Below are positions 450-64,000 of a stretch of 64,000 nucleotides of DNA, piece after piece; the first letter of the stretch is position 1, and the number at the start of each line of letters is the position of its first letter. A program made the position numbers and the translations under genes. Source of the DNA: Bilabrum cf. latius (taxonomy: Eukaryota). The stretch covers positions 744,001 through 808,000 of the forward strand of contig OZ237745.1 in NCBI GenBank assembly GCA_965178125.1, read 5' to 3'. A model generated the notes under the pieces. The model had not been told where the DNA came from and did no database searches. It saw only the letters and a list, made by a program, of their open reading frames with translations.

Positions 450-3400
450 ATGAAGATAACTGATGCTTCCTTCTCACCAGACGGGAAGCTGGTTGCTTTT
501 CTCGCGCAGGAACGAAGCAAGTCGCATTGCCTTCGTGTGGCTCGTTCCAACCACCCAGGCAAAGCAATCACGATTGCGAGCGCATAGACTCTCAGCAAAT
601 CCAACGAAAGTTTATCTCTCCAAGAAAAACTTCTCCGGGAGAGATAGAGGAAGCGCACCGAGGGAATTACTGAGTACTTCTGGGTGCCGAATCCTCCAGC
701 TGGGTGCCTCGGTTGCGTGATTCTACCATTTCGAGGAAACTTGTTCTGCGCGACTGTCGTTGAGGCTGCAGAAAAGCTGGAGGTCGGTACAATCGTGCTT
801 GTGTACGATAAATCTTGGCTCGCAAATGCTCTCTGCGTAGCATCCAGCGCAACAGTAGCCCAGCAGCCTCAGGCTGGACCAGATGGAAATAGGCTTGCAT
901 TTCACGCTGCAGGAGAGGTGTGGATCACCTTACTGCCTCACGCAGATGGATTTCGCTCATCAGATCGGTAGATATGGCAGATAACATACGATGATACGCG
1001 GTTGGAACTCGACCTTGGGGATTATCATTCGCAGGCCGCCGGGCCTCCCGGGACAGCACCTGGCCCTCTGGCTCGTTTGAAGCAAGCAACACCATCACCG
1101 GTTCCTGGAATTACTAGAGGGTTGGCAAATTATTTAGAGGCTGAGGAGCTTGATAGGTACGAAGGGTTTTGGTGGTCTCCAAACAGTCGATTCATATGTT
1201 TTCAGGAGTCGGACCAAACTCCAGTCCCCGAGTTCTCTATTTCGCACCCTGCTGCGGACGATCTGAATGGTAAAAGTGCAGTCGAAGTGCACAGATATCC
1301 GTTTTCTGGGTGCCGCAACCCGAAAGGCCGTCTTGGTATCGCTCGGGTGGAAGCAGCAACCATGCTTCGCGGCTTGCGGCAAATGGACCCTAAGGCTGCC
1401 AGTGGGTGCACGCTTCCTTCGAGAGAAGGCAGCATACAAAGCACCCAAGCAGCAGCGGCAGTATCGACACATGCAAGTACAGTTGGTACGAACCCGCCGA
1501 ATCCTGCGGCTGCGTTTGCTGGCATGCAAACGGATAGCGCGGCTGGAGACGATCCTTTTGCCAGCAGCACCATCCTGTCGCACCACACCAAGGACGGGAT
1601 TCACGTGCATGTGTACCCCCCTATCAATGGGCTACAATGGCTGTAGCTTGCTTCGAAATGCGGTGGAACAGGGGCTACAACTTCGGAAATTGCATTAGAG
1701 TCCGTTCGGGCTCGGCTGCCTCGCTCTTTGTCTTCAGATTCAGATAAAGCGAGCAGCAAGTATGGCAGCGGGAATGTCGAATCGAAGAAAATGGAGGATG
1801 GTTTATCGTTGCCTTTGCACGCTGAGGCGGTTGCAGCTGCTCTTGACGGCACGGTCCTTGATGGGGGCTTTCTGGCCAGGATCACGTGGAGCCCGGACGC
1901 AACTCTGTTCGTGCAAGTGCTGAATAGGGAGCAAACTACCATGGACCTCGTTCGATTTCGGGTGTTTGATGGTGCGTGCGACCTTATTGTCAGGGAGGTG
2001 GCGAGCCCGCCGGTCCCAGGGCTGCTCGGCCCACCGGGTGAAAAGTCCCAGTTGACACGGTCTTCCGGCGAGAGCAAGAGCTAGCGATCCGATGCCGCCA
2101 AATCGAAACAACCTCAAGGGTTGGCTCCAGGTAGAGACCATTCGACGAGAGAACCGCTCGCTGATGCGGCAGAGACCTACTCAGGAAGCCCTCAGCCTGG
2201 GGTCTTCCGGCCATGGATCAACATCACGGGATGCCTGGGCTTTGTTCCGTACGAAGCCCATGGGACAAAGGGTGCCGACGTTGTAGTGGATCAAGATGGT
2301 GCAGAACTCGACGAATTAGACACTGGCGACGCAGATGCGCGAGGGATGGTTGGGGCCACTGCTAGGCCCGAGACATTTCTTCTGTGGGGCAGCGAGCGGT
2401 CCGGCTTCAACCACCTGTACCTGTACAGGGTCACCTCGACCTTTTCTGCCGATGATCCTGCGTCAGTATCGCACGTGCCTCTGGCATAGGACGATCCTGC
2501 CTTGCCTGGAGAAGCAGTGGCGGAGCGGGGCCAGCTCGTCCGTCGTGTCACCCACGGTCACTGGAACGTGCTCGAGGTGCTGCAGATCGACTCTGCGGGC
2601 GGGGACGGCAGCCTCCCCTGCCGCGTCTATTTCATGGCGAACGCGAGGTCCCCCCTGGAGAGGCACGTGTACAGAGCGCCCGTTTTTGCCACCGCGGCTG
2701 CAGGGCCAGTTGTGTCGCCGAGGTCGCGCCCCCTGGGTAGGGCGGGCTCTCACCCGCCTCACCGATCGCCACCGATGAGATCGTACCTGCAATCTGCACT
2801 TGCAGCTGACCCGGGGACGGATTCGGGCGAGTCTAGCCGCAGCGTGAGCACCAACAGCATTAGCAGCAGCAAAGTGGCTGTGTCTGTCGGTGTTGGAGGG
2901 CCTTCGCTGCTCCTTGCCTCCGATGCCTCTCTCATGGAGCCAGCAGCGGATCTCAGGGGGTGGGGCCACGGTTGTTCCCTGGGCGCCATCGAAGCCGTGA
3001 CCGGCTGCGGTTTCGGGCGGTGGCACTCCTGCTGCCTGCAGCCCACTGCAGGACACAGGTCACACGATGCGCTCATGGTGCTCACTTCGTCTTCGTCGGA
3101 TGCGATGCACGAGCACCGCGTTGTAGCCGCTAGCACCATTGGACAGGTTCGCAGCGCGAAAGAGTGGGCCGTGCGCGTGCACATAGATTGTGTTGAAGCC
3201 GATGACGGCCGTGATGATGCCGCCGGGGCAGCGGCATTGAAGGCTGCTGGAGCTGCAGGCGGCAAGGCACAAGGCGATGGCGACGGCGTGCAGCTCGTGC
3301 TGGACGGTGATAGCACGTCTGCCTCTAGCCACGGCAGCTCGACCTCCCCGCACTCGCCAGCCGCACTCGGTGCGGCGATTCCTTTCGATGTGAGCGAATC

Positions 3401-4970
3401 CAACCTCACTCTCACCGAGATCGCGCGGCTTGGCGCCCCTCCCGCCGAAGGCGAGGGCAAGGCTCCGGCACGGCACGGCAGGCCGGGCAGCCGTAATTCG
3501 TCCGACGTCGACGCCGAGGGGAGCCAGACGTCAGAGAGTCAGTATTCTGGGCACACTGCAGCAGGATCAGCGACGGAGACTGGCCACGGAATCCACTCGA
3601 GGAGGAGCAGCCCAATAGCAGACAAGTTGGGAGCAGCCCACGACGATGACGAGGGGGGCGAGGAGTCGGGCCGGTACGACGATCGCGGGGAGGAGGAGGG
3701 TGGGCCGCGGGAAGGAGAAGACGAGGACGAGGGTGGGACTGGCATATCGCGAAAGGCAGATGCTGGCCAGAAGACGCAACGTGGCAAGGCGTACAGCGCG
3801 ATCGGTGGCACAGCAGCCCGTGTGCGTCCGGCGAAATTGGCCTCTCATTCAACAGAAGCCTCTGTCAGCAGCACCGATTCCGAAGGTGTCGCTGGCCAGG
3901 CTTCGCAGGCCACGGGACGCCAAGTACGAAGCGCTGGCGCGGTTGGCAAGACGGCTGCTCACCGCCCGGGTGCTGACTCGACCGATCGAAAACCCTCGTC
4001 TGGCGCTGGCTCTGGCGGTGCATCCCCGGACGGTCTTTCTCCGGAGGCATCAGAGCCGAATCCCAAACCCACCGGCCTCAAGCAAGAAGACTCGGACGTG
4101 TCCATATCGCGGTCCTCGTCAGGACAGCTCACCGCTGCCGCTGAAATGGCCACGGGGTGGCAGTTTTTCGCGTGCCCTTCCGCGGATCCCAGCGCCACTC
4201 TCTTTGGCGCAGTGCTGGTGCCCGACGCCGACAAGTTCGGCGCTGGCCCGTACCCGACTGTGGTGTCCGTGTACGGTGGGCCTCACGTGCAGCTCGTGTG
4301 TGAGAACGCCAACTACATGCTGCGGGACCGAGTGTCGGCAGCGCTCTCCAGAAGCGGCGTGGCGGTGGTGAAAGTGGACAACCGGGGCTCGGCAAACCGC
4401 GGGACTGCGTTCGAGGGCGCGATTCACCTGCGGCTTGGTGGTGTCGAGGTCGAGGACTAGCTGGCTGCTCTGCGGTTCCTGGCGGGCAAGGGCATCGTGG
4501 ATCTCGAAAACAAGGGGAGGGGCGTCGGGGTGAGGGGCTGGAGCTATGGCGGGTACATGACGCTGATGATGATGTGCAAGCACCCGACCGTGTTCCGTTG
4601 CGGCGTTGCAGGCGCACCTGTCACCTCTTGGAATGACTATGACAGCGCCTACACGGAGAGATACCACTCAACCCCAGAGGACAACCCACGGGGATACGAG
4701 GAGTCTTCGGTGCTGCACCGTGTAGGGCAGCTTCGGTCCAAGGACGGCAGCCGCCAGAGCAAGCTCCTCCTCATCCACGGCCTTATCGACGAGAACGTGA
4801 TGTTCCGTCACAGCGCCAAGCTCATGCAGAGGCTCATGGCGGCCAAAGTCAGGTACGATTCGATACTGCTACCTGGTGAACGCCACACGCCGAGGGACCC
4901 GGTCAGCCTAGAGTACATCCATTCGAGGACCACGGAGCACCTCGTCGATTGTCTTACAAAGGGGCTATGA
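450..4970 (+). CDS. Dipeptidyl peptidase IV / DPP8-9-like S9B serine peptidase (~1,500 aa, with long low-complexity inserts)
   Basis: All fragments are in one frame and separated only by TAG (585, 645, 969, 1644, 2082, 2487, 4458); the gene ends at TGA 4968. Motifs: LLRER(Q)R..GITEYFW, EELDRYEGFWWSP, SERSGFNHLY, VYGGPHVQLV, DNRGSANRG, EVED(Q), GWSYGG (Ser), HGLIDENV (Asp), PGERH (His). The start codon is uncertain. Confidence 0.9.
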
Positions 4971-5156: not shown

Positions 5157-7316
5157 TCACAGCACCACGCCCGCTCCAGCAGCTCGTGCGCTGGCGCTGG
5201 CTTGTGCGGGCTTGCCGCCAACACCTGCCCCTGAAGATAAGGCCCTAGCACCCGCCAAACCCGCCGAGGACCCACCCCCAGCCTCGAGGTACTTGCCGAG
5301 CTCGATGCCCATCGGACGAGCAAGTGCCCTGCAGTCCGTATCGCGCAGAAGGCAAGCGAAGGACGCGCCGTCCAGCGCTGCCTCCGGTCCTGCCCGGCGA
5401 AGGTACGTGCCGCCCAGCGCAAGCGACTCGATGCACGCGCCCACGCTAGCGGCTGACACGCCCTTGCCTTCAACAGCCGCAGAGCCGTCCGTCATGGCCA
5501 CAAGCGCAATCGATATAGCAATGAGCCGCGTCTTGTCCACGGCATCACCGAGAGCGACGATTTTGGTGCTGTTTCCAGCTCCTGCAGAACTCTTGCCTGC
5601 GCTGCCGCGCCCGATGCCAGCACTAGCGCCAGCGCCCCCGGTACCGCCGCCGCCACCGCCGCCGTTGCCATTACCGCCCGCCTGCGCCCCGCGGCCGCGC
5701 CTTGCCCTCCTCCTCGCCTGTACCGTGTACTGGAACAGCCTGGAGTCTGCCACGGGCTTAACTCTAGAAGCGATGTACGCCGCAACGAGGACGTACTTCT
5801 CCAGGTAGCTGAGCCGGGAAAGCGCACCACGAGATGAATCGTCCCCAGCACGACCACTGGCGGTAACTTCGGCCGTCCACAGCCGTTCTCGCATCGCTCT
5901 CAGCGCGGGGTGGCACGCACGCATGACCCGAGCCATGGCTTGCCCATCCAGTTCCCCCACAGGAGGCATCGATTGCGCCGATACTTCGGTAGACGTAGAT
6001 GCCGATGCCGACGCCGACAATGACGATGTTGCTGCTGCTGGTTTGGATGATGACAAGATGCCGGCCTCTGCTGCTACCGCCTGGCAGTAGGTAGGCCACG
6101 TGTGCACGACAGCCTCCGCCAGCTCCTCCTCATCGCCGCCTGCTGCCCTCGCCATGGAGCCGCAGACGAAGGCTGATAGAGATTCCATGTGCTTCATGTC
6201 CTTTTTCTTGACACGAAGCTGCGCTGCCGCCATCCGAGCGACAAGCATGCCTAGCTCCCTGCCTTCGATCGGCTAAAAGTGCACCGGGATGGGGGCCCGG
6301 TGGTCACCCACAGCGGACCCCATCATTGCCCGAGGGTCCGACACACTGAAGACCACTGCGATGGGCCTCGATGCCAGCTCCGACACCCTCATGATCTGCG
6401 AGATGACGCTTGGATCTTCGGCGGCCCATCGCTCAGGCTGGTCGAACATCAGGTACGTGGTTCGGTCCGGAGGGCAGACTTTGTGAAGCGCGTGTGCGAA
6501 GCTCGCGAACCGTTCCGATCGGCTCATGGATGCAGTGGGATCGAGAAGACCGAGCTTGCTGCGCTGGGACGTCTGCAGGACTGCGGTGGCAAGGGAGGTC
6601 TTGGGGTCAGCATGCCTCGACACGTGCACAGCCCGCCTGGCCTTCTCCTCCGGCGATTCCGGGACTGGGATGCCCCACGCGATTTCCTGTCGGTCGGTCC
6701 GTGGTGTTGCAGAAGATGAGCCTGCTTTGCACCTGGCCTGCTCGCACCGAGCCAGCTGCGTCAGGCAAATCTGCAGAGCGACGCGGACGTTGGGGCACTC
6801 GAGCGAGGACACAACGGCAAGAGGTGCCTGCAGAGCAGATCTTCCTGCGATGCTATCATGCTCGTCTTCAAACTGGGATGCAGATGACAGGGCAACGTCG
6901 GCTGCAAGTGCTAGTCTCGACTTGGGAGAGCTGCCGAACAGCAGCAGCGGGGGCACCATGCCAGAGCTCTGCGGTGTTCAAAGGGATTTCAAGCACATGC
7001 AAAATTAATTCTAAATACTACACATATAGCTGCCTGCGCTCTTGTTGTGTCTCACGTCTCCGAAATAGCCGGACAGAATCGAAATCTCTCTTCGGCGACC
7101 GTGCCACCGCTGCTCGACCTGCTCAATCCCTCCGAAACCAATGGAGGCAGAACTGTCCAAGGTGTCGTTAGACTCTTCCAATTGGACCCTTTTCTCGTGA
7201 AGCACACGCCTCCGCTTGGAAGTACGAGCTCTGGAGTCCTCGGAAGCTGCAACCGAAGTCCCAATTTTGCGATCAGATTTACAAGCATTTCTACCGGTCG
7301 ATCTCGACCTTTTCAT
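5157..7316 (-). CDS. ORC5: Origin recognition complex subunit 5-like
   Basis: Exon 7316-7056, intron 7055-6969 (GTGAGA...CCGCAG, 87 nt), exon 6968-5157 with an in-frame TAG at 6273 (PVHF-Q-P), TGA stop. Motifs: GRRREI at the N-terminus, TYLMFDQPE..IMRVSEL, and C-terminal LSYLEKYVLVAAYIAS...DSRLF. Confidence 0.75.
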
Positions 7317-7479: not shown

Positions 7480-8341
7480 ATGAGGGCTGTTTTTCGTAGG
7501 GCAAGGGCGTTTACCAAGTTATAGAGGCTTGGCGTGCTCCATCAACCGCTTCGTCTTGGCAGAAAAGTTGTTCTGGCAGCTGGCATTGACAAATGCAGCT
7601 AGTTCACGTCTAAAGCAGCATTGTTTCGAGGCAAAAAGAAAGGAAAGAAGGCCTAGGCTGCAGTAACTACAGACACACTTGACGATTCAGCAGCTGGTGT
7701 TGAGTTGATTGACGCAAAAGACCTTGCAAAAAAGCTTGACGGGGCCAAGCGTAGCTTTGAGACTGGACTGTCAAAGATTAGGGCTGGTGGTGCAGACCCT
7801 TGTAAGAAGCTAGCTATGGAAAGTATGTTATATTATGTTGCACGCACCATTCCGGTGTGTTCCGGCTGTCATCGCAAAATCTCTCGCAGCCATCTTGGAC
7901 GACGTCGAAGTGGAGGCGTACGGAGAGGTACAACCAATCACCGCCCTCGGTTAGGTGCAAGAGAAGGGCGCGAACTTGTTGGTAGTATCTGTGTTTGACC
8001 CAAGTCAGGGCGAGGCCGTCTCGGACGCCATCCGGGACGCCGGCCTGGGCCTGAACCCTTCCTTTGACGGGCAGGTTGTCCGAGTGCCCGTCCCCAAGCC
8101 GACCAAGGAATCCAAGCAGGAGGGCATCAAGCTGGCCGGCAAGCTCGCAGAGGCCGCGAAGGTTCGAGTGCGCAAAGTGCGCCAGACAGCGCTGGACAAG
8201 ATCAAGAAGGCGCAGAAGGCCTCGGAGCTCACCGAGGACGATGCCAGGAGAGAGAGCAAGGCCGTCGAGGAGGCCGTGGAGAAGGTGAACGGAGGGATCG
8301 CCAGCGCGCTGCAGGACAAAAAGAAGCAGCTGGAGAGCTGA
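7480..8341 (+). CDS. frr: Ribosome recycling factor, organellar (probable mitochondrial presequence)
   Basis: Arg-rich N-terminus MRAVFRRARAFTKL. In-frame TAGs at 7522, 7600, 7654 and 7952. Intron 7802-7889 (GTAAG...CGCAG). Motifs: KIRAGGADPSILDDVEVEAYG..ITALG(Q)V..VSVFDPS, AGLGLNP, VPVPKPTKE, AKVRVRKVRQ. TGA at 8339. Confidence 0.9.
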
Positions 8342-8855: not shown

Positions 8856-11800
8856 TCACGAGATGGTGCAGCAACCATCCGACGCTGCTGACGGCGACGG
8901 AGTCACACTCGGGGTTGGCGAAGAAGAAGGCGTCTCTGAAGGTGAAGGAGTACACGATGGCGTCCCTGAAGGTGTTGCGCTAGAAGATGGCGTTGTCGTG
9001 GGAGTTGGCGTCGGCGTCGGAGTGGATGTAGGCGTCGGAGCTGGCGGGCGTAGCCTTTCGAACATGCATTCGGCCGGGAATCGCACAGCTTCGTTGATTG
9101 TTCTCGGCTCACACAGTCCTGACGGGTGCTCGGCATCGCGCCCATCTCCACCAGCGCTGCCACCAGCTGCTTTGGCGGCCTCGATTCCATTGCTTGGCAT
9201 GTATCCTAGTTGTTCCAGCGTGTTAGCAGCGCCCAGCCGGACCATGGTTGTGACGAGGGTCACCAAGCTAGTCTAATAGCTCGTGTGAGCTGCTCCGGCG
9301 CAGCCGAATGGAAGCAGCTGCTTGGCCTAGGATACTCCAGCTGTCTGAGTCGTACCAGACCTCAGTACCCTCGGATAGATCTATACCTCATCGTCGCGAT
9401 CAAAGTCGGCTGCTGCCCACTGACCGCACAGGACCCGCCCCCGGTCCTCCCGACTGAGATCCGCGAATGGATGCCGCTTCTTGTACATGTCGGTGAGGAT
9501 CTTGGCCACTGGTGCGTACAGTCTCACACCGGCCACCTCTGTCCTAGACAGGTGCCACAGCAGGCTAAGCCCTGGCTGCAGGGCTTTGAAAAGACGAGCG
9601 GCACCAGGGTCAGTCGCCCGATCTTGCTGACCGGCTCCCTTGTCGCCTTCAGGCGGGCTATAACTGTCGAATAGCACCTCTAGAAGAATTTCGATCAGAT
9701 CACAAGCCGCTGTACCGCTCGATGCATCTGCTGCGCACTTGAGGGCCCTCTGCACTGCTGCAGCCGTCATGCCATCGTGTGCGTCCTTATGGTTCAAGTG
9801 GGTATTGAACCGTCCAGTGGTAGCACGCAGCATGACCATAGCTTTCCCAGCGCGCTCCAAGTACTTGGCGCTGTGCACGATTGAGTCTAGAACATTTAAA
9901 TCAGACCCTGCCTTAGCTACCATGGCATGGTCGGTTCCGTGCCGGTTGCGTCGCGCCACGCCACCGAGACTCCGCTGGTCTACGAACCTCAACCCATCCT
10001 GCGCTGCTGCTGCGCTGGCACCACCCCCAGCCTACCTCTTATCCTCTTCAGTGGAGCCCGGCATTTGCGGCTGAGAGTCATCCTTCTCTCCAACGTGGGC
10101 GCCATGAACCTCACGAACGATGTCAAAACCAGCGTCCCCAGTGCTAGGGTCAGGATCAGCACCAGCACCCCCACCAGCACTTTCGCCAGCATCCACGCCA
10201 GCATCCACACTAGCACCACCATCATCGTGAGCATCCGACCCGATCGCGTAGTTGTCTGGGCTGATGTCGAGCGACAAACGAATCGAGTCCAAGAAGTTCT
10301 CCGCCGCGGCGGATGCGATTTCATGATTTGGCAAAGGCATCGCAACCATGCCCTGGCCCCACAGGTACACCGCTGTGTCGACGGAGCCTTCCGTGGCGTA
10401 TGCCTCTGAAGCGAGGAGAGCAGAGAGGCTTCTATAGTACAAGACCCTGCCGTACGCATGCTGTACTCTCTCGAGGACCTTCCCGTCAGTATCGCCATAC
10501 CGCAAGCTGGCAACAGCCTCGAAAACTGCCAGCTGGAAGTTCGCAATTGTGACGCCCCCGACCTGCTCCACAGGACCGGGCTCGGCTGCACCGGAGCCAC
10601 TGACTGGGCCAGCCTGAACATGAGCGCCGCGCAAGCTTGATGACCCACTGCCGCCTCCCTGCAAGGCATGCAGTGCAATTTCAAGTTCTCGCAGAGCCGC
10701 GGACCGCTCGTCAAGCGATGCCTCGTAGGCGCCCTGCCTGCAGTAGGCCGCCAACTCCTCGGGGATGGCCCGCAGCTGGCCCAGGCCCGCTGGCTCACCG
10801 AAATAGGCATGATAGCTGTCACTGCCTCCAGCAAACGTGGACGTGGTCTCATCGTTGACCACTGAGCTGCAGCGACTGAGAATCATCTAGGTCACGTCAG
10901 CCGCAATCAGTGAAGCTTCACGGAGCGCGGCGCGATTCTACTCTTTCAGCTGACCCTCCATGAAGCGCTTATCAGCAGTGTTGTAAAACGTGTCGCTTAG
11001 AACTAGTTTATCTCCAAGTCCATCTACGATCTGCTTGCAGTACTCCTCCGGAAGCAGCAGCCGTGCCTTGGCCAAGACAGCCACGAGTCAGTCCCAATGG
11101 TGCATGGTGGCAAGGCGCATCGCGAAGCCCTTGACACCCACGTGCTTCGATTGCAGTGCTTTGTAGATGCTGCCGGCGAGGATGGTGTGATAGGGGCACA
11201 TCGCGTCGTCCCCGGTGGCTGTAGGATCAGCAGCACCTCCTGCACTGTGTTGCTCCGGCCAGCACCTCTGCTGCTGTTTGTACTGTTCCATAGCTTTCTC
11301 GCCTGTCAGCTCCTTGCCACCGCTGAGCCCAACTTTCTTCTGATCGAATGCGAAGTCAGTCGCGTATAGCACGAGGTCAAAGTACCCTGAAACGGTGGTC
11401 TGCAGGGCGCTGACACGAGTCGCGGGAGTGCAGGGAGTGGAGCAGCTTGCGGTCGGCAACATCAGCAGGGCTCTGGCCCTCGTACCGGGAGCAGGCCACA
11501 TTGGCGACGCGATCACGCACTTTTTGGGTTGCGAGAAGCAGCTGCTTGACGCCCTTGCTGGCAAGTGAAAGTTGGGCCTCAGTCTTTGTACTTCCGGATA
11601 ACATGTGGTCCAAATCGGCCGACACATCGGCTTGTGTACGGCGAGTCAGCCCACGCGCGATCTCCATGGGCAGTCGACTAGAGCTAGCATCGGCATGAAA
11701 CGAGAACACGCTTTCAAGCAGATGGTTAGCCTGCTTCACGAACGCGACATCCAGAGGTTCGCCATCTCCGTCTTTGCCCACGTCCACCCGAACGTTCACG

Positions 11801-21268: not shown

Positions 21269-21338
21269 CATTCACGACTCCTTCACTCCATCGCGCCCTC
21301 TCTCATTCACGACTCCTTCACTCCATCGCGCCCTCTCT
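21269..21338. repeat. Perfect 35-bp tandem duplication spanning the myosin stop codon
   Basis: CATTCACGACTCCTTCACTCCATCGCGCCCTCTCT occurs at 21269-21303 and 21304-21338. Confidence 0.9.
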
Positions 21339-46185: not shown

Positions 46186-46357
46186 TTGCTTTGCATTGAG
46201 GCTACAAAACGCACAAAATACTAGCGTTCATGAGCAACGCTCAGCTCGCGAGGTTCCGCAGAGATTGCGCGGCGAAGGCCAAACCAGTGAAACACAAATC
46301 TTGTCCCTTGCGTTCTGCAGAATTCTATCAACTATGTGCACAGAGCAGTAATCGAAA

Positions 46358-48325: not shown

Positions 48326-48459
48326 TCCGGCGCACGGGGGCGTTCAATCCAGGATTGGCTCTGAATTGCAAATTGCAACACCCTGATTTGCACAGAAATT
48401 TTTTAGTATTTAGTCCGTGAGAAAGCCTCGATCAAGCACATTGCAATAAACAGTAGACA

Positions 48460-54400: not shown

Positions 54401-54450
54401 AGCCGCCCGCTCAGGGCTGCGAAGAGTATGATTAAAAGTGTATAATGCAT
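48460..54450 (-). CDS. Signal peptide + plant-type LRR ectodomain + Cys-rich region + multi-pass (about 7 TM) membrane domain (~2,000 aa)
   Basis: MHYTLLIILFAALSG; an LRR cap (LLSLYDALSGPDW..WYGVTC); LxxLxLxxNxLxGxIP repeats; CGDGYDGPRCARCSQGYY; VYFVQI; FLTSDYSDDFFWWECVEL; LRPF. One frame with 10 TAGs (53722, 52570, 52027, 51463, 50605, 50203, 49246, 49081, 48979, 48934). TGA at 48460. Confidence 0.8.
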
Positions 54451-54666
54451 TTCCGACTGCCGCACGGCTTCCACCCTGTGTTGTGAGGAGAAAGAAACGT
54501 CTTCGCCAGGCAGCTGCCGCGGCGTGACGAATGGCAATCAATCCTTGTGTGTTGACCACGCTTGGACGGAATTCAACGATTCGTGCTTAAACATCGCCCG
54601 TTAAGTACCGTATTACTGTGACCAAGCAGTCGTGCGCAGTGGAGCAAACTCGTGGAAAGCAGCCCA

Positions 54667-57600
54667 ATGGACACTCCTGACCAAGAGCTGCTGCTCGCGA
54701 TGCAGGCTAGCCTAAGCTCAAGACGCGCAGAGGAGTAGCGAAGAAAAGTAAGAGATAAGGAGGCTACCGAACTTGCGATTGCGCTGTCCTAGTCCTAGGC
54801 AGGACAGGGTGGCTCACAGCTGGCCATTCCAAGCGCTGGGATCGCAAGTCAAGCAACCCGTTTGGAGGATTCCTTTGCGGGCGAAGATAAAATGGATGAT
54901 CTAGAAGCTGCAATCATAGCATCGATATCAGACGTCGAGGGATAGGCCTGTGGCTCCGGAACGAAATCCAGCGGTGCACGCTTGGCCATTCCGCCGGAGG
55001 GGCATTCGTTGCGAGGCGATTCATGCTCCAATACATCTGATGCAGCTGCAAAATCCTAGCTGCAAGAATGGATGACAGTATGTTAGGTCTCTGCTGGGGC
55101 CAGATTCAGAGATGATCTCTTTCCACCAACCGAGCAGTCCCTCGGTGATCTCAGCGAATCGTCCTTGCAAGTGCAAGTCCACCACTCCGACGGAAGACGA
55201 AGCGTCCGGCGAATCAGACCAACCTGGGCGTCCCCACTTGACCTGTTTCCAACTCGTTAGGACAAGTCGAACGCGACCACATCCGACGAGATCAGGCAGA
55301 TTGCCATTGCTCACGCTGGCCGAAGCGGCAAGAGGGACACCCACGCCGGGGTGATAGAGCTGCAGGACAGGATGGGCCGAGGGATGCCTCTTGATGACAA
55401 AGATGTTGAGCTGGTGCGAGTTCTTGGGGCCTCCATGTTCCAGCTGACCCGCCCAAGCGGCGAGCCGTCAGCGATGGATGTGAGACAGGCAGGTTTGGGA
55501 ACGTGCTGGTTCGTGTCTGCAATGGCGGTTGCTTGCGAACACGAGGGGAACATCCGTAGGCTGTTCCGGCAGAAGACACTGCCTAGCCACGGTATGCTGC
55601 AGCTGCAGCTGTGTGTCGGTGGGGAGTGGCGCGTCGTCACCACGGACGACTGCCTCCCCACGGACAGGGACAACGGGACGCTCCTGTTTACGAGCGGAAG
55701 GATGCAGCAGCTGTGGCCGAGTTACCTGGAAAAGGGCATAGCGAAACTCAGCGGGTCATTCGCCGAGGCTGCAGGGGGCGGCGTGGGTGAAGGACTCAAG
55801 TACCTGACGGGGGCACCCATCGAGCACATCAACACCAAGACTTGCCTCACGGATGGGGAGGAGAAACTCAGGCGACTTGCGCTCCACGCAGCGAGCGGAG
55901 AAGGCGGCCGAAGCTGGCTCCCACGTTGGCTACAAGATCAGTGCGATGAGCGGCCAGCTACTGAGGGGGAGCTGTGGGCACGGCTCCTGAGCTGGTCGCA
56001 GGCTGGGTTCCTCGTCGGAGCGTCGTGCGGCAAGGTCGATCGCGATGAGACGCCTGACGCCGAGCTTCAGCCGCGGTACCAGGCGCGAGGGCTGGTGTTT
56101 AATCACGCCTACAGCATCTTGAAGGTTGTGGAAGTCCCGTTGCCGCTGCTCCCTGAGAGATACAGGCGCACAGTGTCAAGGTCAAGAGATCGTTCCACCA
56201 TGGCAAGTGACGCTGCAAGCCTTCGTGGCGCTAGCGCCCCAGAGAGTGGCGCCGGTACTGGCCTTGGTGGCAGCGTTGTTCTGAGGAGGCATTCGAGCGG
56301 AGAGTTAATGGAAGTAGAACGTGTCGTCGTCCTGCGAAATCCATGGAGCGACGCGAGTGAGGTTGGTTGGAACGGCAGGTACGGGAGGACGTGGGGCGGA
56401 GTCCGTGATTCGCCAGAGGTGAGTAATCTGCTCTTCGGTGACCTAACTGAGGCGCGCGATGGACTATTTTCGTCGTCTTCGATTGCGAGCGGGGCAGGTG
56501 CTGCATCAGCCCACTCCTCCACCATACCGCCAGGCGTGTTCGGGATGGCTTTCGACGATTTCAGGCAGTACTTTGGCTCTGCCGATGCGGCGTGTGCTCG
56601 GAAAGGATACAGTCACGCGAGAATGACAGCCATGATGCCTGTGTCGCTTGCAGTTGATGTGCCCATTTACCCAGCATACGTGGTGACTGACCATTCCAAG
56701 TCAATGTCTGCGACTGCGTGCGTGTCCCAGCTGTGTCAGCGCATGCGGAACGGCATGCAAGTGCGCATGGCCATTGCGCATACGCGTGGTCGCACAGAAG
56801 GTAATGGCGACTCAGTCGCAGCTTCCGCTGCTACTGCCGGGTCCGCTGTTGCCCCATTTGGTGATGACGGTGCTGGTGCAGCCAAAGTGGCAGCAGAGTA
56901 TGGTTGGGAGGTCTCGCGTTGTGAAGACGTGAGCGGCATGGCAGACGTAGGGTGCGTTGTGGTGAGGTTAGCGGGGAAAATGTCTCCACAAGCAGCTGTG
57001 AAAGCCTTGAACAGCAAGCAGTGGGAGCTGGCAGACGGCTAGCACAGCTTGCCAAACAGCGTTGGCGCAACTAGTGGTACGCTCAGTGCAGCTTCGTCAG
57101 TCTCGGCTCCTGTTCCTCCGTAGCTGCTACGCAGCTGTCCCCGCGCCATGGTGGAGTCTGTCAACACAGACTTTTACCTCGACAAGGACTACACCCACGT
57201 GATTGTACCCCTGTCACTGGGCCCGCTCACCACTGAAAGCGCGCAGAGGCTGACCACATCGCTGCACGGTCCCCACGATATGGCACTGACACCGGTCATG
57301 CTAGGGGGGCGGGAGCTGGCTCAAGTGCTGTGTGCGCGCTCGCGTGCGATAGGCAAGGCCATGCCGCTGGCACGGCTAGGACCTGGCTGTTGCGTGTGGA
57401 CGACAGGTGGAGACAGCGGCGATGTGCTTGTGGTTGAGAACAGCAACCCTAACGTGTGGCTTCAGTTGCAGGTAGACTACAGCGAGGGCAGCTCTAACGT
57501 ACACTTCAGCCGAGGCTCAGACGTGACAATGGACTACATATAGCCAAGGAGTCGTTAGGTGCTGCAAATTGCGTCGCAGGCTGACAGCAGAAGAGGATAT

Positions 57601-57735
57601 CGCCTCAGCTTCAAGTTTAGCGCAAAGTCAGTGTCTCCGGCCGCGGTGGCCCACTCCATGGCGAGTGGCACGTTTACGAGGAACTTTCCGTCCATCGTGG
57701 CTGGTTCGGTGCACGAACACGTGAGTGCGGGGTGA
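54667..57735 (+). CDS. Calpain-15/SOL-like cysteine protease with N-terminal UIM-like motifs
   Basis: FRDDLFPP, DVRQAGLGTCWF (Cys), LWPSYLEKGIAKL, NHAYSIL (His), LRNPW (Asn), and a SOH-like end SSNVHFSRGS..DYI(Q)PRSR(Q)VLQIASQ. Eleven in-frame TAGs; TGA at 57733. Confidence 0.85.
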
Positions 57736-57748
57736 ACAGTGTGTCCGG

Positions 57749-57934: not shown

Positions 57935-60900
57935 TCACGGCATGTGCGCACCTCTACGTCGGTAGAAGAGTATGTACGCAGAGTTCGACTTGACGGCTGA
58001 TGTTCTGATCCCGTCCGACACCCGCGAATCGTCGAACTCGAGCCAAGACGCGTTGGCAGTCTCTGCGTTCCCCGAGTGCCGCTTCTCGCCGAGCCCTCCA
58101 CCCCCGGGCCCGTCTCCCGCGCCGTACCTCGCAACGTAGTGATTCGCGTAGGCAGTGTAGTGCCCAAAGCCCATGCTGCCGAAATGATTCACCACGCCGT
58201 AGCAGTCGTAGGTAGACTGCAGCTTGTCAGCAGCAGAACCAGTCGCGTCGCCATGGCTCGCGTCGCTACCGGCTGCAGCCGATCCACCGCCTGCACCACC
58301 AGTGGCAGCTCCTGCAGCGCTCGAGTCCGCGCCATCACCAGCCCCTTCCTTCTTCTTCCGCGCGAACTTTCTCTCCAGATTGTGCTTGGTCAGGTCCCAG
58401 CCCACCAGCGGGAAATCGATGTGGTCCTCCAGCTTCCTGGCATAGTAGTGGCTGCCGCTGCTGAACCGCTTCAGGTGCACCACAAGAATGTCGGGCAGCT
58501 TCCAGGGCTGCATGTGCTTGGTGGCTCTGACGTGACTCTTGCAGCCCGAGCAGTACCACTCGTTCTGGGCATCCAGCACTTCAGGAGTGCAGAATGCGTC
58601 CATGCAGTCGTCCAACGACACAGCCTCTGCTCTCTGCTTGACCTTAATCGATGGATGACTGTACTCACAGTCATAAGAGTGCGCGTCAAAGGAGCTCTTG
58701 CGAAGCTCGTCGTCGAATCGAACGCGGAGCAGCTTCACGCCGGCGCCACTCTTGTGGTACATGGGGTCGTCCGGGTCGGTGATGCCAGGTCCGAGCACCC
58801 CACCCACGGTGACACCACCTTCATCAGCGCCTGGGAACTGCACCTCGCCGATGCGAACGGGTTCCTGCTCGCGGTTGGTGGATGGGAACAGGACCACCGA
58901 CCTCGCGAAGGCCTCTGCCTCCTCAAGCAGCGCACCAGGGCTGGCTTCGTCCTCGTCCGCCTCAGGCTCGGGAACACCAGCGGCCTCTGCCGACTCACGG
59001 GCCTTCCTGAGGCCAGACACGCGCTCCGGGATGCCTCGAACCGCACCAGCCAACAGCTCTGCGTATCGCCTGCGGAACGAGAGAGGGCTGGCCCAGCCCG
59101 GGAGGGATACCACGCGGGGCAGCCCGACGTCATTGCGATGCATGGGGTTGTACAGGCGCACCTCGACGTCCACCCTGCCTGTAGCAGCATCCTCCCCGGC
59201 CTCAGCGGCGTACCTCACGGCTGCCTCGCACGCCTCGGGGGACGGATCGAACGGATCCACGCCAGCCCACGAGCCGTCCTCCTGCTTGACTGGGAGGGGG
59301 AAGCTGTCGGGACCAGTTTGCGTGCACAGCAGCCAGTGCTTGCCAGGGACGCTCCTCACGCCCTTGGTCATTGGCAGCGCCACGCCGAGGTTGCCCTTCT
59401 CCTTGTACGAGTACATCCGCACGTTAGTCTTGTCTCCATCAAGCGTTACCTCCTTGGTCGAGTCTGACAGCTACTTGATCCGGCAGCTGCGGTCCACGAT
59501 CACCCTGGCGTCGCAGTTGCGGACAAGCGAGGGATAGATCTCCTTGAAGGTTACCTTGCGTGTGTAGTAGTCCTGCTGCCTGCCTAACTTAATCTCCACG
59601 TCGTACGCCCTGTCCACCACCTCCCGCGGCCGCTTGGGCTGCGGCTGCACGGTGAGCGCCATTTTTCGCTGCCTCGGCCCGGCAATGGGCAGCGACAGGG
59701 ACGTGTACGGGTCGAACTGAACGCTGATGTTGCTGCAGTTGGGGCACGTCAGCTCACTTCGCAAGAGCCCCATCATGCAGTCGGTGACGATGCTGTCGTT
59801 CCGCTGCAGGTGGGTGGCCCAGGACTTCTCGGCCACTTCGTAGTCGTCCTCCTTGCCCTTGCCCTCCGGCTTGGTCGTCGCCGGCTTCTTCCTCACGCGG
59901 TTGAGGTCCTCGTGAACCGCGTCAAGAAGAAAGCTCAGAAGCTCGTGGGAGTCGTGCTGCTGGAACCCCGCGAAGTCGCGGCGGAAGCGCCCCACGGCAG
60001 ACTTGACGCCGGTCGGGGCCACCGAGGAGCCTCTTTCATAGTGCATGTAGTTGACGAGGAAGGCGTACTCCCTGCTGAGGTTGCACTTGGTCCCGAGCAC
60101 GTTCCCAGGGTTCTCGTCGATCTTGTGCAGGTCAGCGAGAAGGTATGCGCTCAGCGGCCAGGTCGCCTTGACGCACTGCAGCGCGCTGTTCATGAAGCAC
60201 GTGTTGCCGAGGTTACGGAGGCCCATGGCCCCCGCAATGCGGTGCGATTTCCAGTCCATGCCGAACAAGTTGCGGCTGTCAGTAGTCCGGGGGTACAGCG
60301 TGAGCACCTTGGACCGGTTGGTGAGGGAGCTCCGCTCCACGCCATCATCCATCTTCACGGCACCGCCGCCCGCCGCGCTCGCAGTCACCCCCATGCGCTG
60401 CATCTCACGCTCCTCCACCTGCTGCTTGACCCTCCTCTCGGGGAACAAATCCACCACGTTGTCGGGGAAGTGGTCCTCGGGAGGCTCGCTCCCATCCGCT
60501 GGGGCAGCACGGTCGAACACTGCCCTCCGCAGCATCGCCTTGTCTCCGTACCAAGACCGTAGGGCCTTGTACGGGTCCTCTCCCACCAGCACAAAGTGCC
60601 TGCGGAGAGAAGCCCCTGGGCGGATGCGGGGCGGCAGCAGGATGGGCTTGGGCGGGCCCGAGCCCGCGGGGGCCACGTCATCGTCAGTGCCGGGAATGCA
60701 ATCGACCACCTCGGCGGTCTGTCCGCTGTCGGCCTCATCGTCGCCGTTACCGTCGCCCTTGTCACCGTCGCCCTTGTCATCCTCCTCGTCCTCGTCCTCG
60801 TCACCCTTGCTCTCGAGTGTTCCCTGCTCCTGCGCCTTGCGGGCCTTGGCTGCAACCCTCCTGGCCAGCTCCTCCTCGTCGTACGACTCCTCCCCCTGCC

Positions 60901-61738
60901 TCAGGCACAGCCTCTCGTTGTCGATGGGACCCAGGAGAGCCAGCTCCTCTTTCCCCGCTGCGGCTGTGGCCTACGGTGCCCCATTCCCCGCTGCGGCGTC
61001 AGCTGCGGCAGCGTCACTTGCACTGCCGTTCGATGCACCCTCCACCTCCGCGGCCTGCGGCCCAAGCTGGAGCTTCCAGCCGACGGGGAACTTGGCCTTG
61101 TCCGGCCCGTCGTAACCCGTCGCAGCGCACCAGTTCCTCCACCAGCGCGCGTCCACAGCGTAGTAGTGGTCGCCGGTCTGGAGCCCCCTCGTCTCCTGCT
61201 GCTCCATCAGCTGCTGGATCATGGCTGCCTGCTAGGGACCAGCAGGCATGGGCGGCTCGCGCTTGCCATCGTGGTAGTAGTCCCTGATGTCGATCGTGCC
61301 CTCGTCTGGTTCGTCCATGCCGCCGGCTGCTGGGCCTGCTCCCCCAGCACCGGGCCGCTTGTTGAGCTTGTGGTACAGCTTGTCGACGAGGGCCTTCAAT
61401 TCTGGATCCTAGGACCCTTCCCATGCTTGTTTCGCGACCCTGTATGCTACATCAGTCCTACCCATTTCGTCATACACCTTCGCAATGTTGAACCTTGCCT
61501 TCGTGTACGTGGGATTCAATTTGAGAGCGGCTTTCAGGCTTTCCAGGGCTTCCTGCGGCCGATCTAATGTTTTAAGGGCGATCCCCCGGTTAAACAAGCA
61601 CCTTGCAGCATCTATATCGTTACCAAGCCTGTTAAAAGAGGCGGCTGCATCTGCAAAAAGGCCCTCTGCTAGCTCCAGATCGTTTTGCTTGAATGCGAAA
61701 CATGCCTCTTCGTACACATGTTGCGGCGACTAGGCCAT
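57935..61738 (-). CDS. USP4/11/15-like ubiquitin-specific protease with N-terminal TPR and DUSP-like domains (~1,267 aa)
   Basis: TPR-like CLFNRGIAL..PQEALESLKAALKLNPTYTKARFNIA; DUSP-like YYAVDARWWRNW; Cys box GLRNLGNTCFMNSALQC; QQHDSHE; LPDILVVHLKRF; His box VVNHFGSMGFGHYTAY; AYILFYRRR. TAGs at 61730, 61409, 61232, 60971 and 59471; TGA at 57935. Confidence 0.9.
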
Positions 61739-62271
61739 TCTCTGCGGCAACAAGCCAAAGTGATCGCGACTAGGAACAGACTGATCAACATGAAACATTT
61801 CGTATTAAATTGAACGCTTGTTGAAGGTCTGAAAAAAGCAAGAAGAGATCCGTGCTGTGTGGACCGAGCCAGCCCATCCAACAGCTCTAATAGGCTAAAG
61901 ACAAGAATGGAGGCCAGCTCTATTCATAACTAAAACCCTTATTATGACCTTCATCAAACCAAACACACTATGAGATGGAGAGGATGCCATAGCGCGCATG
62001 AAGAAAGAGAACCAGTCCCGAGAACGGTCGAGCAATACGATTTCCGACCTAGAGGAGGAATCTCAACATCTCTGCTCCTAGCTAACCACGCATATATTTA
62101 ATAAGATAAAATTGATAGATGCAGTCAGCAGTTTTACTCACGATTGGCCAAAGGGTGGCTCAAGAAGCAAGGACGCTGCGTTATTCAGACTGTCTCGCAC
62201 AATCGCACGCAACCCAGCATAGCCCAGCGGATCGTGCGATTCTGGTGCTCCACAGACAAGCGCGGCCGGCA

Positions 62272-64000
62272 TCACAGGTGACGGGCCACCGCTGCGCGTC
62301 GAAATTTGATGAGTGCTGCCCGGCGGGCCCCCATCATGGTGTCATCGAGCAAACGCAGCAGCCTGCCCACTGTTTGACGCTCTCCGGCAAATTGTCCCCG
62401 CACCACGCAGCGGTACGGCCGCCTGGGCAGACGCCTGGATGTGGCAGAGGGCAGATCCGGGAGGGAGCAGGGGTTGTAGTCAGCTGGAATCTCCTCCTTG
62501 ACCACTTCGTCTTTCCAATCCGCGCTCGCTAGTGCCGCCACAGCTACTTTGGGCAGGGTAGGCAGGCGCCCCCTCCAAGCAGGGGACATGGCACAGGCCA
62601 GATGCAGCTCGAGAGCCGCCACCCAAGGCTGAGCCTCGGCCGCGCACGTTGGGAAATGAACGGCCTCAGCAAGGGGAACTGTGGTGCTGCAATCATCGTC
62701 AGCATCATATGCACCTGCGCTTGTACCAGCACCAGTAAACGGGGCCTTGCGCTTGCCTTTCTTGCCCCGGCGGCGTCGCCTCTTGGTGCTCGTCTGGACA
62801 CCTGCTGCACCAGTGGCCATGGCGCCCCTCCCGCCATGGAGCCGACCCAGTCGCAGCCTCATTGCCCCATGCAACTTGTTGAAGTCGACCTGCCTCCCTG
62901 ATGCCCTGGCCCACATTCCGGGCAGGATTCCCGCGATTTCACCGACGAGAGACTTTGTGTCCGTGAACACCACGGCGGGAGGGCTAGGGATCCTCTTCAC
63001 GCTCACCCCGTTCGCAACAAAACACCACGCCGGCACTTCGATGAGGCCTACACAATCAAAATTTGGAAGCGAATTGATGCACATGGCAAGGAACCGCCCT
63101 CCCGCGGCGCTGGTGTATGGGCAGGGCGAACGGGCCGCCATCAGGGCGCCGGGGAGGAGGTACTCGGCCTCTGGGATCCACATTTTCTCGTCCGGGTCAA
63201 GCCTATTCGCCCATTCCCACTACGCGGCCGTGGATTCCTTCTCGCCGCTGAGCACGCGGTGCCTCCACACACGGACCTTGTAGAGCGCGTGTTTCTGTGC
63301 GCTCAGCAGCAGGCGCATTCCGCGGAAGAGACCATCCACGCTGCCCCGTTGCTGCTGCTGCCAGGTGCCTGCCGTCCCGTACCAAGTTGACACCCACTCG
63401 CAAGCGCCATCCGTCTCATCATTCAGTTGACTTTGGTCGTACTTGAAGTAGTCGGCCAGCACCCACTGCCTGGCCCTCTGGAAGCGGATCGCGGCTTGCA
63501 GCAGCTGGCCGAGCTGCTCGTCGATTTCAACGACTCCATCAGATGGAATCGGGAGGCGATTTTTGGATCGGAGGGACACTGTAGCCAGGGAGTGAAGGCC
63601 CATCGTGGCAGCATCCACCAGCTCCCCGATGCTTTGAATCGCTGGGAGAAGTGCCTCCTTGAGCTCTGGATTCGCCAGGCCGCTGCTCAAGTCGGCCCGC
63701 TCCTCTAGAAGCCTGCAGGCATCGTTGATTTGGCATCCCAACTTGCGAACGCACCGCATCCCGTACAATTCCAGGTGTTTAGCCAGCGGTTTAAGGCTCA
63801 AGCTCTGGGAGACGAGAACCTGCTCCAGCTGATTACGGGACTCCTTGGTGCCGCCCCCAAACATCTCTGGAGGGAAGTCAGCGCTCCACAACCAGTAAGC
63901 GCTTGCAGCGGACGCGCACAGGCGCAACCAGCGGTTAATACCGACGAGGCCCGGCCCAGGTCCAAAGCGAGCAACGTGGTCGTCCCTGTCGAGCAAGGGG
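62272..64000 (-). CDS. Partial hypothetical protein (3' part; starts beyond the window)
   Basis: Track ORFs 63220-63996 and 62272-63183 share one frame and are joined by TAG at 63220; ends at TGA 62272. No family recognised. Confidence 0.6.

What the first reader, a model, noticed from the sequence alone, without database searches (positions are those of the whole stretch)
450..63222. Non-standard nuclear genetic code: UAG is read as glutamine
Seen: about 90 in-frame TAG codons (hand count) in 16 genes on both strands; the frame continues unchanged after each. Several fall on conserved Gln positions: DPP-IV GVEVED*L (4458; family EDQ) and LRER*R (645); RCC1 WGNNTRG*CG (26883), where three sister repeats in the same protein have GQLG/GQCG coded by CAA or CAG; RRF ALG*V (7952); TatD ICR*H (37453; E. 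coli TatD LARQY); U1-C zinc finger RN*H (38438; plant-type RKQH); calpain SOH R*VL (57556); UIM-like ALS*S (54790). Housekeeping genes such as ORC5 and RRF would otherwise be truncated. Established: most nuclear reassignments change UAA and UAG together. UAG-only reassignment (translation-table-15-like) is known from very few eukaryotes, such as the fornicate Iotanema and some phyllopharyngean ciliates. Inference: a GC-rich, stramenopile-like genome with this code could be an independent, possibly undescribed origin.
Basis: partly seen in the sequence, partly recalled or inferred. Interest (0 to 1): 0.97.

Follow-up and report, generated by a model that had tools for sequence, protein, structure and literature searches.

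The report
UAG codon read as glutamine
This stretch of a GC-rich eukaryotic nuclear genome uses the normal stop codon TAG as an ordinary glutamine codon inside its genes, a rare kind of genetic-code change already known from a handful of other protists.

Summary
Fourteen gene models carry 85 in-frame TAG codons and no in-frame TAA or TGA in 17,315 codons; 13 end in TGA and one in TAATGA. Pfam domains run straight through the TAGs. Contigs from three other coded studies match the window letter for letter. Two of these runs carry spliced GT..AG joints that the DNA run lacks, so the TAGs sit unedited in mature mRNA.

The amino acid is glutamine. Fragments from close relatives show Q opposite our TAG in 4 of 5 comparisons. 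Their internal ORF ends fall on our CAA/CAG 4 times and on our TAG twice, of 6. Conserved columns agree: calpain SOH Q in 34 of 39, DPP-IV EDQ, RCC1 GQxG.

TAA is not sense here: about 28 would be expected and none is seen.

No tRNA or eRF1 gene lies in the window and no whole genome is held, so the mechanism is inferred. The organism is not identified; hints of a stramenopile are weak. This is a table-15-like code, probably a new member of a known kind.

The parts
282..4970 (+). DPP-IV-like serine peptidase ORF (DPPIV_N + Peptidase_S9, with long insertions). It has 8 in-frame TAG at 315, 585, 645, 969, 1644, 2082, 2487 and 4458, and ends in TGA. The first TAG may lie upstream of the true start.
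5157..6977 (-). ORC5 homolog. One in-frame TAG (first base 6275); ends in TGA.
7709..8341 (+). Ribosome recycling factor, downstream exon. TAG at 7811 and 7952; ends in TGA.
8856..11087 (-). Unknown protein A, a paralog of C. Six in-frame TAG; ends in TGA.
11377..12585 (-). Unknown ORF B, the upstream part of the duplicated unit. Two in-frame TAG.
15409..18330 (-). Unknown protein C, a paralog of A. Seven in-frame TAG; two of them are shared with A at aligned positions.
21318..33953 (-). Giant myosin-head / IQ-like / RCC1-repeat protein, main exon of 4211 codons. Twelve in-frame TAG (first bases 29234, 28712, 28556, 26885, 26555, 26249, 25907, 25265, 23876, 23807, 22061, 21689); ends in TGA.
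33948..34046 (-). Inferred 99-nt GT..AG intron in the myosin head. It holds the only TAA that lies in frame between two coding stretches. It is inferred from sequence and myosin homology and was not covered by the reads laid.
34978..37641 (-). Protein made of two TatD domains. Three in-frame TAG (first bases 37455, 35724, 35028); ends in TGA. The last TAG lies 16 codons before the stop.
38438..38440 (+). TAG in the U1-C-like zinc-finger exon (context RN*H). The gene was not modelled.
   Evidence: one search shows the sequence; the homology is recalled, not tested
39451..46095 (-). Cysteine-rich, EGF-like surface protein ORF. Ten in-frame TAG; ends in TAATGA. An 84-nt intron at 46026-46109 is spliced out in a contig of run X5.
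46306..48424 (+). Fe-ADH-like gene of three exons. Introns 46648-46736 (89 nt) and 47783-47957 (175 nt) are removed in contigs of runs X5 and X6. The spliced ORF has 569 codons, 7 in-frame TAG (46538, 46610, 46637, 46945, 48008, 48053, 48119) and a TGA stop.
48460..54537 (-). LRR and transmembrane protein. Ten in-frame TAG; ends in TGA. One X5 contig (48415-54467) covers it with 0 differences.
54622..57735 (+). Calpain with UIM-like motifs, a calpain core and a SOH-type tail. Eleven in-frame TAG (54736, 54790, 54796, 54943, 55057, 55084, 55258, 57040, 57121, 57541, 57556); ends in TGA.
57935..61804 (-). Ubiquitin hydrolase with TPR, DUSP and UCH domains. Five in-frame TAG; ends in TGA. One X6 contig (57845-61741) covers it with 0 differences.
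62272..63999 (-). Unknown ORF that runs off the window end. One in-frame TAG (first base 63222).

Best explanation
The window is nuclear DNA of a GC-rich eukaryote with few, short introns. In its translation system UAG has been fully reassigned from stop to glutamine. UGA is the usual terminator, and UAA is not used as a sense codon. This is a code like NCBI table 15. Three things are shown: TAG sits in frame in mature mRNA, it is evenly spread along genes with no special sequence context, and it is interchangeable with CAA/CAG between close relatives. The rest is inferred and was not testable here. A tRNA-Gln with anticodon CUA, one base away from the CUG isoacceptor, would decode UAG. A C at the wobble position does not read UAA, and this lets the two codons diverge. 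The eRF1 N-domain would have lost UAG recognition while keeping UAA and UGA. At least one more distant relative (50-60% protein identity) shows the same pattern of ORF breaks, so the code is probably shared by a clade and not by one strain only.
For: (1) Frames. There are 85 in-frame TAG, 0 TAA and 0 TGA in 17,315 codons of 14 gene models; 13 end in TGA and 1 in TAATGA. Off-frame stop counts are ordinary. Pfam domains (DPPIV_N and S9, ORC5_C, two TatD, calpain, UCH, myosin head, RCC1, LRR, RRF) are recovered across the TAGs.

(2) RNA and independent data. Four runs from four coded studies were laid on 44001-64000, and tables 3 and 4 list no other letters and no indels. X5 and X6 contigs carry GT..AG joints at 46647/46737 and 47782/47958, and X5 also at 46025/46110. 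All are absent from DNA run X1. The spliced contig holds 7 TAG. Contigs covering the LRR, calpain and USP genes hold 26 TAG with 0 differences.

(3) Relatives. Ten ORF fragments were compared. Opposite our TAG, close relatives (89-99% identical) have Q, Q, Q, Q, S, which is 4 of 5. A 50%-identical relative has Q, P, Q. Eight of the 10 fragments end inside our proteins. The next codon in ours is CAA, CAG, CAG, CAG, TAG, TAG and CAA, with 1 unaligned (by eye it falls on Q). CAA plus CAG make up 3.7% of codons.

(4) Distant homologs. Calpain SOH column X979 is Q in 34 of 39. DPP-IV X1393 is Q in 3 of 3 PDB alignments shown. TatD X63 is Q in 4 of 4 shown.

(5) Pfam score with 10 candidate residues placed at TAG. 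Q scores best for Peptidase_S9 (155.9; next is Y at 154.8) and for RCC1 (52.6; next is R at 49.7).

(6) Context and TAA. The +4 base after TAG (C30 G23 A22 T10) resembles that after CAG, and TAG positions are spread evenly along genes. The A-ending share of two-fold codon pairs is 0.16-0.29, so about 28 TAA would be expected if TAA were Gln; 0 are seen.
Against: No tRNA of any kind is found in the window and no whole genome is held, so neither the suppressor-type tRNA nor eRF1 was seen. There is no protein-level evidence. The run kinds are guesses by the tool (X5 is labelled 'RNA? (probably DNA)'), and the RNA nature rests on the spliced joints. Contigs drop rare variants, so partial editing cannot be excluded. 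I could not see the relatives' DNA, so their ORF-ending stops are assumed to be TAG. Several TAG positions face variable or non-Gln columns: RRF N/S; TatD X640 E 55 against Q 15 of 117; calpain X974 P 25 of 33; one close relative has S. Within-window paralogs show TAG opposite E, K, A, N and R as well as Q. The status of TAA rests on 64 kb only, and the single TAA terminator is immediately followed by TGA.
Confidence: 0.88

Rival explanations
1. Both UAA and UAG encode glutamine (table-6-like, as reported for Amoeboaphelidium protococcarum, ulvophytes and many ciliates). TAA is merely rare because the genome is GC-rich.
For: This is the commonest eukaryotic stop reassignment (passages in PMC5304391 and PMC11687900). 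The only TAA 'terminator' in the window is followed at once by TGA, so it need not terminate. GC3 is 0.67.
Against: There are 0 in-frame TAA in 17,315 codons, where about 28 are expected from the A-ending share of CAA/GAA/AAA (0.25-0.29). Reading TAA as sense extends only three ORFs. One extension lies in a GT..AG intron, one lies upstream of the 5' end of the transcript-type contig, and one adds a single codon.
Confidence: 0.05
2. UAG is ambiguous: sense inside genes and stop near 3' ends (context-dependent termination, as in Condylostoma or Blastocrithidia-type codes), or it is read through at high efficiency by near-cognate tRNA-Gln.
For: The EGF-like gene has a TAG 6 codons before its TAATGA, and it could be the real stop. 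Such codes exist (abstracts of PMC4967479 and 10.1101/2022.04.12.488043 in the listing).
Against: None of the 14 genes needs TAG as its terminator. In TatD the last TAG lies 16 codons before the TGA; that conserved TatD sequence continues after it is my reading of the translation, and no alignment shown covered it. In calpain a relative has Q at both late TAGs and reads on to the same end. There is no +4 or -1 context bias relative to CAG. At about 5 TAG per 1000 codons (11.6% of Gln-type codons), leaky readthrough would truncate nearly every long protein.
Confidence: 0.05
3. UAG is a sense codon but encodes another residue (Glu, Lys, Leu, Tyr, Ser or Trp), as in some phyllopharyngean ciliates, the rhizarian exLh or Scotinosphaera.
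For: TatD X640 faces E more often than Q (55 against 15 of 117). Calpain X974 faces P. Paralogs show E and K opposite TAG. One close relative has S.
Against: Close relatives have Q in 4 of 5 comparisons. Every aligned relative ORF end that is not a shared TAG falls on CAA or CAG: 5 of 5, against a 3.7% background. Q is best of the 10 residues tried in two Pfam families. Calpain X979 is Q in 34 of 39. E, K and R are the usual replacements of Q.
Confidence: 0.02
4. Artefact or decay: the TAGs are base-call or assembly errors, lie in unrecognised introns, are edited to CAG in RNA, or the genes are pseudogenes.
For: Introns do exist in this genome.
Against: Runs from four coded studies give identical letters. 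Spliced contigs keep the TAGs. No edited letters are listed. Only TAG occurs in frame, never TAA or TGA, and there are no frameshifts over ORFs of up to 4211 codons. Domain alignments pass through the TAGs without gaps.
Confidence: 0.01

Closest known systems
NCBI translation table 15 type code (UAG=Gln; UAA and UGA stop) as reported for the fornicate Iotanema spirale (PMC5304391, passages read)
   Same: UAG alone is reassigned, to glutamine, in a nuclear genome of a non-ciliate protist. UAA keeps a different meaning.
   Different: Iotanema is known from a transcriptome, and its eRF1 has a T32G change in the GTS motif. Here eRF1 could not be examined. This genome is GC-rich (0.55-0.64) and its best named hits are not metamonad. 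That table 15 is named for Blepharisma is recalled, not checked.
UAG-to-Gln lineages among ciliates: Protocruzia tuzeti and two phyllopharyngean lineages (PMC11687900, discussion passages read)
   Same: The same codon takes the same new meaning, and UAA is decoupled from UAG. The explanation proposed there, that a CUA anticodon does not read UAA, applies here too.
   Different: There is no sign of ciliate genome architecture. This is a 64-kb multi-gene contig at 59% GC with genes up to 12.6 kb and GT..AG introns of 84-175 nt. Ciliate affinity was not formally tested.
UAR-to-Gln codes (Amoeboaphelidium protococcarum, ulvophytes, Hexamita, Streblomastix, many ciliates; passages in PMC5304391, PMC11687900 and PMC6299283)
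   Same: Stop-to-glutamine reassignment that includes UAG, presumably through mutated tRNA-Gln genes.
   Different: TAA is not a sense codon in this window (0 seen, about 28 expected).
UAG reassigned to other residues with UAA kept as stop (rhizarian exLh: Leu; Scotinosphaera: Ser; passage in PMC11687900)
   Same: UAG is decoupled from UAA.
   Different: The residue here is Gln, not Leu or Ser.

Membership tests
UAG-only stop-to-Gln nuclear code (table-15-like) | UAG occurs in frame inside expressed protein-coding genes | tested here: met
   85 in-frame TAG in 14 gene models. They are kept in spliced and gene-covering contigs of runs X5, X6 and X8 with 0 differences.
UAG-only stop-to-Gln nuclear code (table-15-like) | UAG corresponds to glutamine | tested here: met
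   Close relatives have Q opposite our TAG in 4 of 5 comparisons. Relatives' internal ORF ends fall on our CAA/CAG 5 times, on our TAG 2 times, and once unaligned, of 8. Calpain column X979 is Q in 34 of 39. DPP-IV EDQ is Q in 3 of 3 alignments shown. Q is best of 10 residues in Pfam S9 and RCC1. This evidence is comparative only; no peptide data exist.
UAG-only stop-to-Gln nuclear code (table-15-like) | UAA is not a sense codon | tested here: met
   0 in-frame TAA in 17,315 codons, against about 28 expected. ORF extensions under TAA-as-sense are explained by an intron, a 5' flank and one codon. This holds for 64 kb only.
UAG-only stop-to-Gln nuclear code (table-15-like) | UAA and UGA function as terminators | tested here: inconclusive
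   UGA closes 13 of 14 ORFs. UAA closes 1, as TAATGA, so termination at UAA itself is not shown.
UAG-only stop-to-Gln nuclear code (table-15-like) | A cognate tRNA-Gln with anticodon CUA is encoded | not testable with these tools
   ARAGORN finds 0 tRNA in the window and Rfam gives 0 matches. No whole genome is held.
UAG-only stop-to-Gln nuclear code (table-15-like) | The eRF1 N-domain is altered so that UAG is no longer recognised | not testable with these tools
   eRF1 is not in the window and no genome is held.
UAR=Gln code (table 6) | TAA is used in frame like TAG | tested here: not met
   0 TAA against 85 TAG in frame.
Ambiguous stop/sense codes (Condylostoma or Blastocrithidia type) | The reassigned codon also terminates genes near their 3' ends | tested here: inconclusive
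   No gene needs TAG as its stop. One TAG lies 6 codons before TAATGA in the EGF-like gene. Only 14 genes were examined.
Programmed stop-codon readthrough | A specific downstream context at a few sites per genome | tested here: not met
   About 5 TAG per 1000 codons in every gene. The +4 base distribution resembles that after CAG.

The most novel reading that the evidence does not exclude
An independent, so far unpublished origin of the UAG-only-to-glutamine code in a GC-rich non-ciliate lineage, possibly a heterotrophic stramenopile. It would be shared by a clade spanning at least 50-60% protein divergence and already present, unrecognised, in several public data sets whose standard-code gene calls are chopped at every TAG. 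This would be one of very few known cases where UAG and UAA were decoupled outside ciliates, in an organism with genome and RNA data to hand.
Probability: 0.4. Interest if true: 0.8.

Novelty: new member of a known kind. Interest (0 to 1): 0.7.

Why it matters
Nuclear code changes that separate UAG from UAA are very rare. The passages I read name Iotanema, Protocruzia, a few phyllopharyngean ciliates, the rhizarian exLh and Scotinosphaera. Another origin, in a GC-rich genome with long multi-gene contigs and existing RNA data, would give a tractable system for two questions: how eRF1 loses one stop codon but keeps the other two, and how a tRNA-Gln(CUA) becomes fixed. There is also a practical side. 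Any annotation of this organism and its relatives under the standard code truncates most long proteins, and the public protein fragments found here are visibly cut at TAG.

Tried and rejected
Whole genome: none is held, so Codetta-style inference, tRNA, eRF1 and 18S searches were impossible.

Two other queries confirmed the families (myosin, ORC5) but gave no useful taxon.

The search for homologous proteins on full-length calpain at near lengths gave only 4 hits.

The metagenome-contig scan with the myosin head matched 589 patterns, none confirmed. I did not use the second scan.

Rfam on the window gave 0 matches.

Naming the nearest calpain homologs gave Cafeteria roenbergensis, a MAST-4 protein, animals and unnamed records. 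This is too weak for a placement.

Sequencing runs: no listed holder is on record as RNA. Parts of the laid stretch without cover in X6 and X8 are not interpreted.

Within-window paralog comparison was uninformative about the residue: TAG faced TAG 3 times, CAG 2, GAG/GAA 2, AAG/AAA 2, and GCG, AAT, CGG and TAT once each.

Literature: seven searches found no paper describing a GC-rich or stramenopile UAG=Gln organism. PMC6733595 and PMC10120064 were opened and proved irrelevant. Supplementary files were not requested.

The U1-C comparison was not tested because the exon is too short.

Full report
**What is in the window.**
The window has 55-64% GC and is packed with eukaryotic genes on both strands. 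Under the standard code these genes are broken. With TAG read as a sense codon, stop-to-stop ORFs of 4211, 2214, 2025, 1562, 1289 and 1037 codons appear. Reading TAA as sense adds almost nothing. Reading TGA as sense only multiplies short spurious ORFs and lengthens none of the longest ones. Pfam finds DPPIV_N with Peptidase_S9, ORC5_C, two TatD domains in one protein, a calpain core, TPR/DUSP/UCH, a myosin head with RCC1 repeats, LRRs, EGF-like modules, RRF and Fe-ADH. Each lies in an ORF that runs across TAG codons.

**Counts.**
- Thirteen long ORFs hold 78 in-frame TAG.
- A fourteenth gene (46306-48424), spliced as the contigs of two runs show, is a 569-codon ORF with 7 more.
- In all there are 85 TAG, 484 CAG and 164 CAA in 17,315 codons. 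Thirteen genes end in TGA and one in TAATGA.
- In the other five frames of the same DNA, TAG (98-141), TAA (35-65) and TGA (162-362) are all common. The complete absence of TAA and TGA in frame, next to 85 TAG, is therefore not chance.
- TAGs are evenly spread along the genes. The base that follows them (C30 G23 A22 T10) resembles the base that follows CAG.

I did not model the U1-C, ankyrin-like and RRF exon-1 pieces.

**Are the TAGs in the mRNA?**
One search found eight runs from four coded studies that hold most of 54600-61800. Four runs, one per study, were laid on 44001-64000. X1 holds the whole stretch in one contig and may be the source.

- X5 and X6 carry joints 46647/46737 (89 nt skipped) and 47782/47958 (175 nt skipped), both GT..AG. 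X5 also carries 46025/46110 (CT..AC, which is GT..AG on the minus strand). None of these joints is in X1. These contigs therefore derive from spliced RNA, although the tool labels the run kinds only as guesses.
- The spliced contig carries the 7 TAG of the Fe-ADH-like gene.
- Other X5 and X6 contigs cover the LRR gene (48415-54467), the calpain gene (54567-57838) and the USP gene (57845-61741) with 0 other letters and 0 gaps. Together these hold 26 TAG.
- X8 covers 52547-59368, also with 0 differences.
- No other letters or indels are listed for any run.

This removes sequencing error, hidden introns and full TAG-to-CAG editing as explanations. Contigs cannot exclude minor edited fractions.

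**Which amino acid?**
The strongest evidence came unplanned. Searches for shorter homologs returned ORF fragments from unnamed assemblies that are 89-99% identical to the window's TatD, myosin and calpain. Two further fragments are 50-60% identical. These had evidently been gene-called with a standard-type code, because consecutive fragments tile our proteins and stop abruptly.

All ten fragments were aligned to our proteins with X at each TAG.

- Opposite our TAG, the close relatives have S (TatD 63), Q (myosin 3965), Q (myosin 4089), Q (calpain 974) and Q (calpain 979). That is 4 Q of 5.
- The 50% relative has Q, P and Q.
- Eight of the ten fragments end inside our proteins. The codon in ours just after each end is CAA, CAG, CAG, CAG, TAG, TAG and CAA. 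One end was left unaligned by one residue; by eye it falls on Q.
- CAA plus CAG make up 3.7% of codons.

So TAG and CAR trade places between close genomes, as synonymous codons do. I could not read the relatives' DNA, so that their stops are TAG is an inference.

**Distant homologs.**
- The calpain SOH-tail column at 57556 is Q in 34 of 39 usable rows. The neighbouring TAG at 57541 faces P in 25 of 33 (150 calpain homologs were given, and rows were kept only if at least 10 of 12 flanking positions aligned without a gap and at least 3 were identical).
- DPP-IV 4458 faces the Q of the EDQ motif in 3 of 3 PDB alignments shown. TAG 645 faces Q in one weak stretch.
- TatD 37455 faces Q in the 4 PDB alignments shown; three of these are E. 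coli TatD. In 17 usable rows of 118 homologs it is variable (A6 Q4 T2 R2 E2 G1). TatD TAG 35724 faces E 55 and Q 15 of 117.
- RRF 7952 faces N or S in 5 of 5.
- RCC1 25907 is a variable position.
- As a Codetta-like check I placed each of ten residues (Q E K L Y W S R P A) at the TAG and rescanned Pfam. Q scored best for Peptidase_S9 (155.9; next Y 154.8, lowest E 152.0) and for the RCC1 repeat at 26885 (PF00415: 52.6; next R 49.7). It was also best in PF13540 and PF25390.
- Within-window paralogs were uninformative about the residue.

**Is it UAG only?**
No TAA lies in frame in any model. From the A-ending share of two-fold codon pairs (0.16-0.29), about 28 TAA would be expected if TAA were glutamine too. 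Reading TAA as sense extends three ORFs.
- The myosin ORF extends across a 99-nt GT..AG interval that restores the myosin NPxK region. This is an intron inferred from sequence.
- The USP ORF extends beyond the 5' end of its transcript-type contig.
- The EGF-like ORF extends by one codon, because it ends in TAATGA.

UGA is clearly a terminator. Termination at UAA is not demonstrated in 64 kb.

**Mechanism.**
What is shown is in-frame, unedited, context-free TAG that is equivalent to Gln codons. The machinery is inferred. A tRNA-Gln(CUA) would decode UAG, and its wobble C does not pair with UAA; this is the argument given for other UAG-only codes (PMC11687900 discussion). eRF1 would be altered in its N-domain; compare T32G in Iotanema (PMC5304391). 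Neither gene is in the window and no genome is held.

**Organism.**
The organism is unresolved. The nearest named calpain homologs are Cafeteria roenbergensis, a MAST-4 protein and animal calpain-15. The best eukaryotic TatD hit is Phytophthora kernoviae, among mostly bacterial hits. The RCC1 part matches Toxoplasma myosin L among PDB chains. The atlas gave no usable taxon, and JGI metagenome contigs hold no relative of the myosin head. 'Stramenopile-like' is therefore a weak lead. An alveolate or another affinity is not excluded. An aphelid seems unlikely, given these hits and the absence of TAA sense codons, but it was not formally tested.

**Novelty.**
The kind is known. UAG-only-to-Gln has been reported for Iotanema spirale, Protocruzia tuzeti and two phyllopharyngean ciliate lineages. 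Seven full-text searches found no report for a GC-rich or stramenopile organism. The library lacks most subscription journals, I did not see supplements, and the public runs date from 2025, so a description may exist or be on its way. I file it as a new member of a known kind. Confidence is high that the code change is real (about 0.9). The chance that it is an unpublished independent origin is about 0.4.

Noticed in passing
8700-12700 (-) and 15250-19400 (-): A tandem duplicated block with 84-90% DNA identity. Each copy encodes an unknown protein that ends in a Thr/Pro-rich linker and 'CCTIS', a possible CaaX-type lipidation signal (my reading, untested). The ORFs 13775-14581 (+) and 20250-21017 (+) are also near-copies of each other.
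   Followed up: partly
34978-37641 (-): One 887-codon ORF fuses two TatD nuclease domains, which are joined and tailed by long Arg/Gly-rich low-complexity runs.
   Followed up: partly
21318-34628 (-): A giant protein of more than 4200 aa with a myosin head, IQ-like region and RCC1 repeats. Its RCC1 part matches Toxoplasma myosin L among PDB chains. The architecture may help place the organism.
   Followed up: partly
39448-39453 (-): The EGF-like gene ends in the tandem TAATGA. It is the only TAA at a gene end in the window, so termination at TAA is not actually shown.
   Followed up: yes
60676-61342: The acidic low-complexity part of the USP gene has 7-50 times the contig depth of its surroundings in all four runs, with many loose ends. 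A coding repeat motif seems to be shared by many loci.
   Followed up: no
48415-48460, 54467-54567 and 57838: The genes are very tightly packed. Transcript-type contigs end 45 nt after the LRR stop codon. The divergent LRR and calpain contigs leave only about 100 nt uncovered. The convergent calpain and USP contigs abut at 57838. Contig ends are only a weak hint of RNA ends.
   Followed up: no
P0141 (protein, named): The best full-length calpain hit is filed under a moth (Heliothis virescens). It is internally duplicated and Ala/Gly-rich, so it may be a protist contaminant in that assembly.
   Followed up: no
282-4970 (+): The DPP-IV homolog is about twice the usual length (1562 against roughly 750-900 aa). 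Several long low-complexity insertions lie between the propeller and the S9 domain.
   Followed up: no
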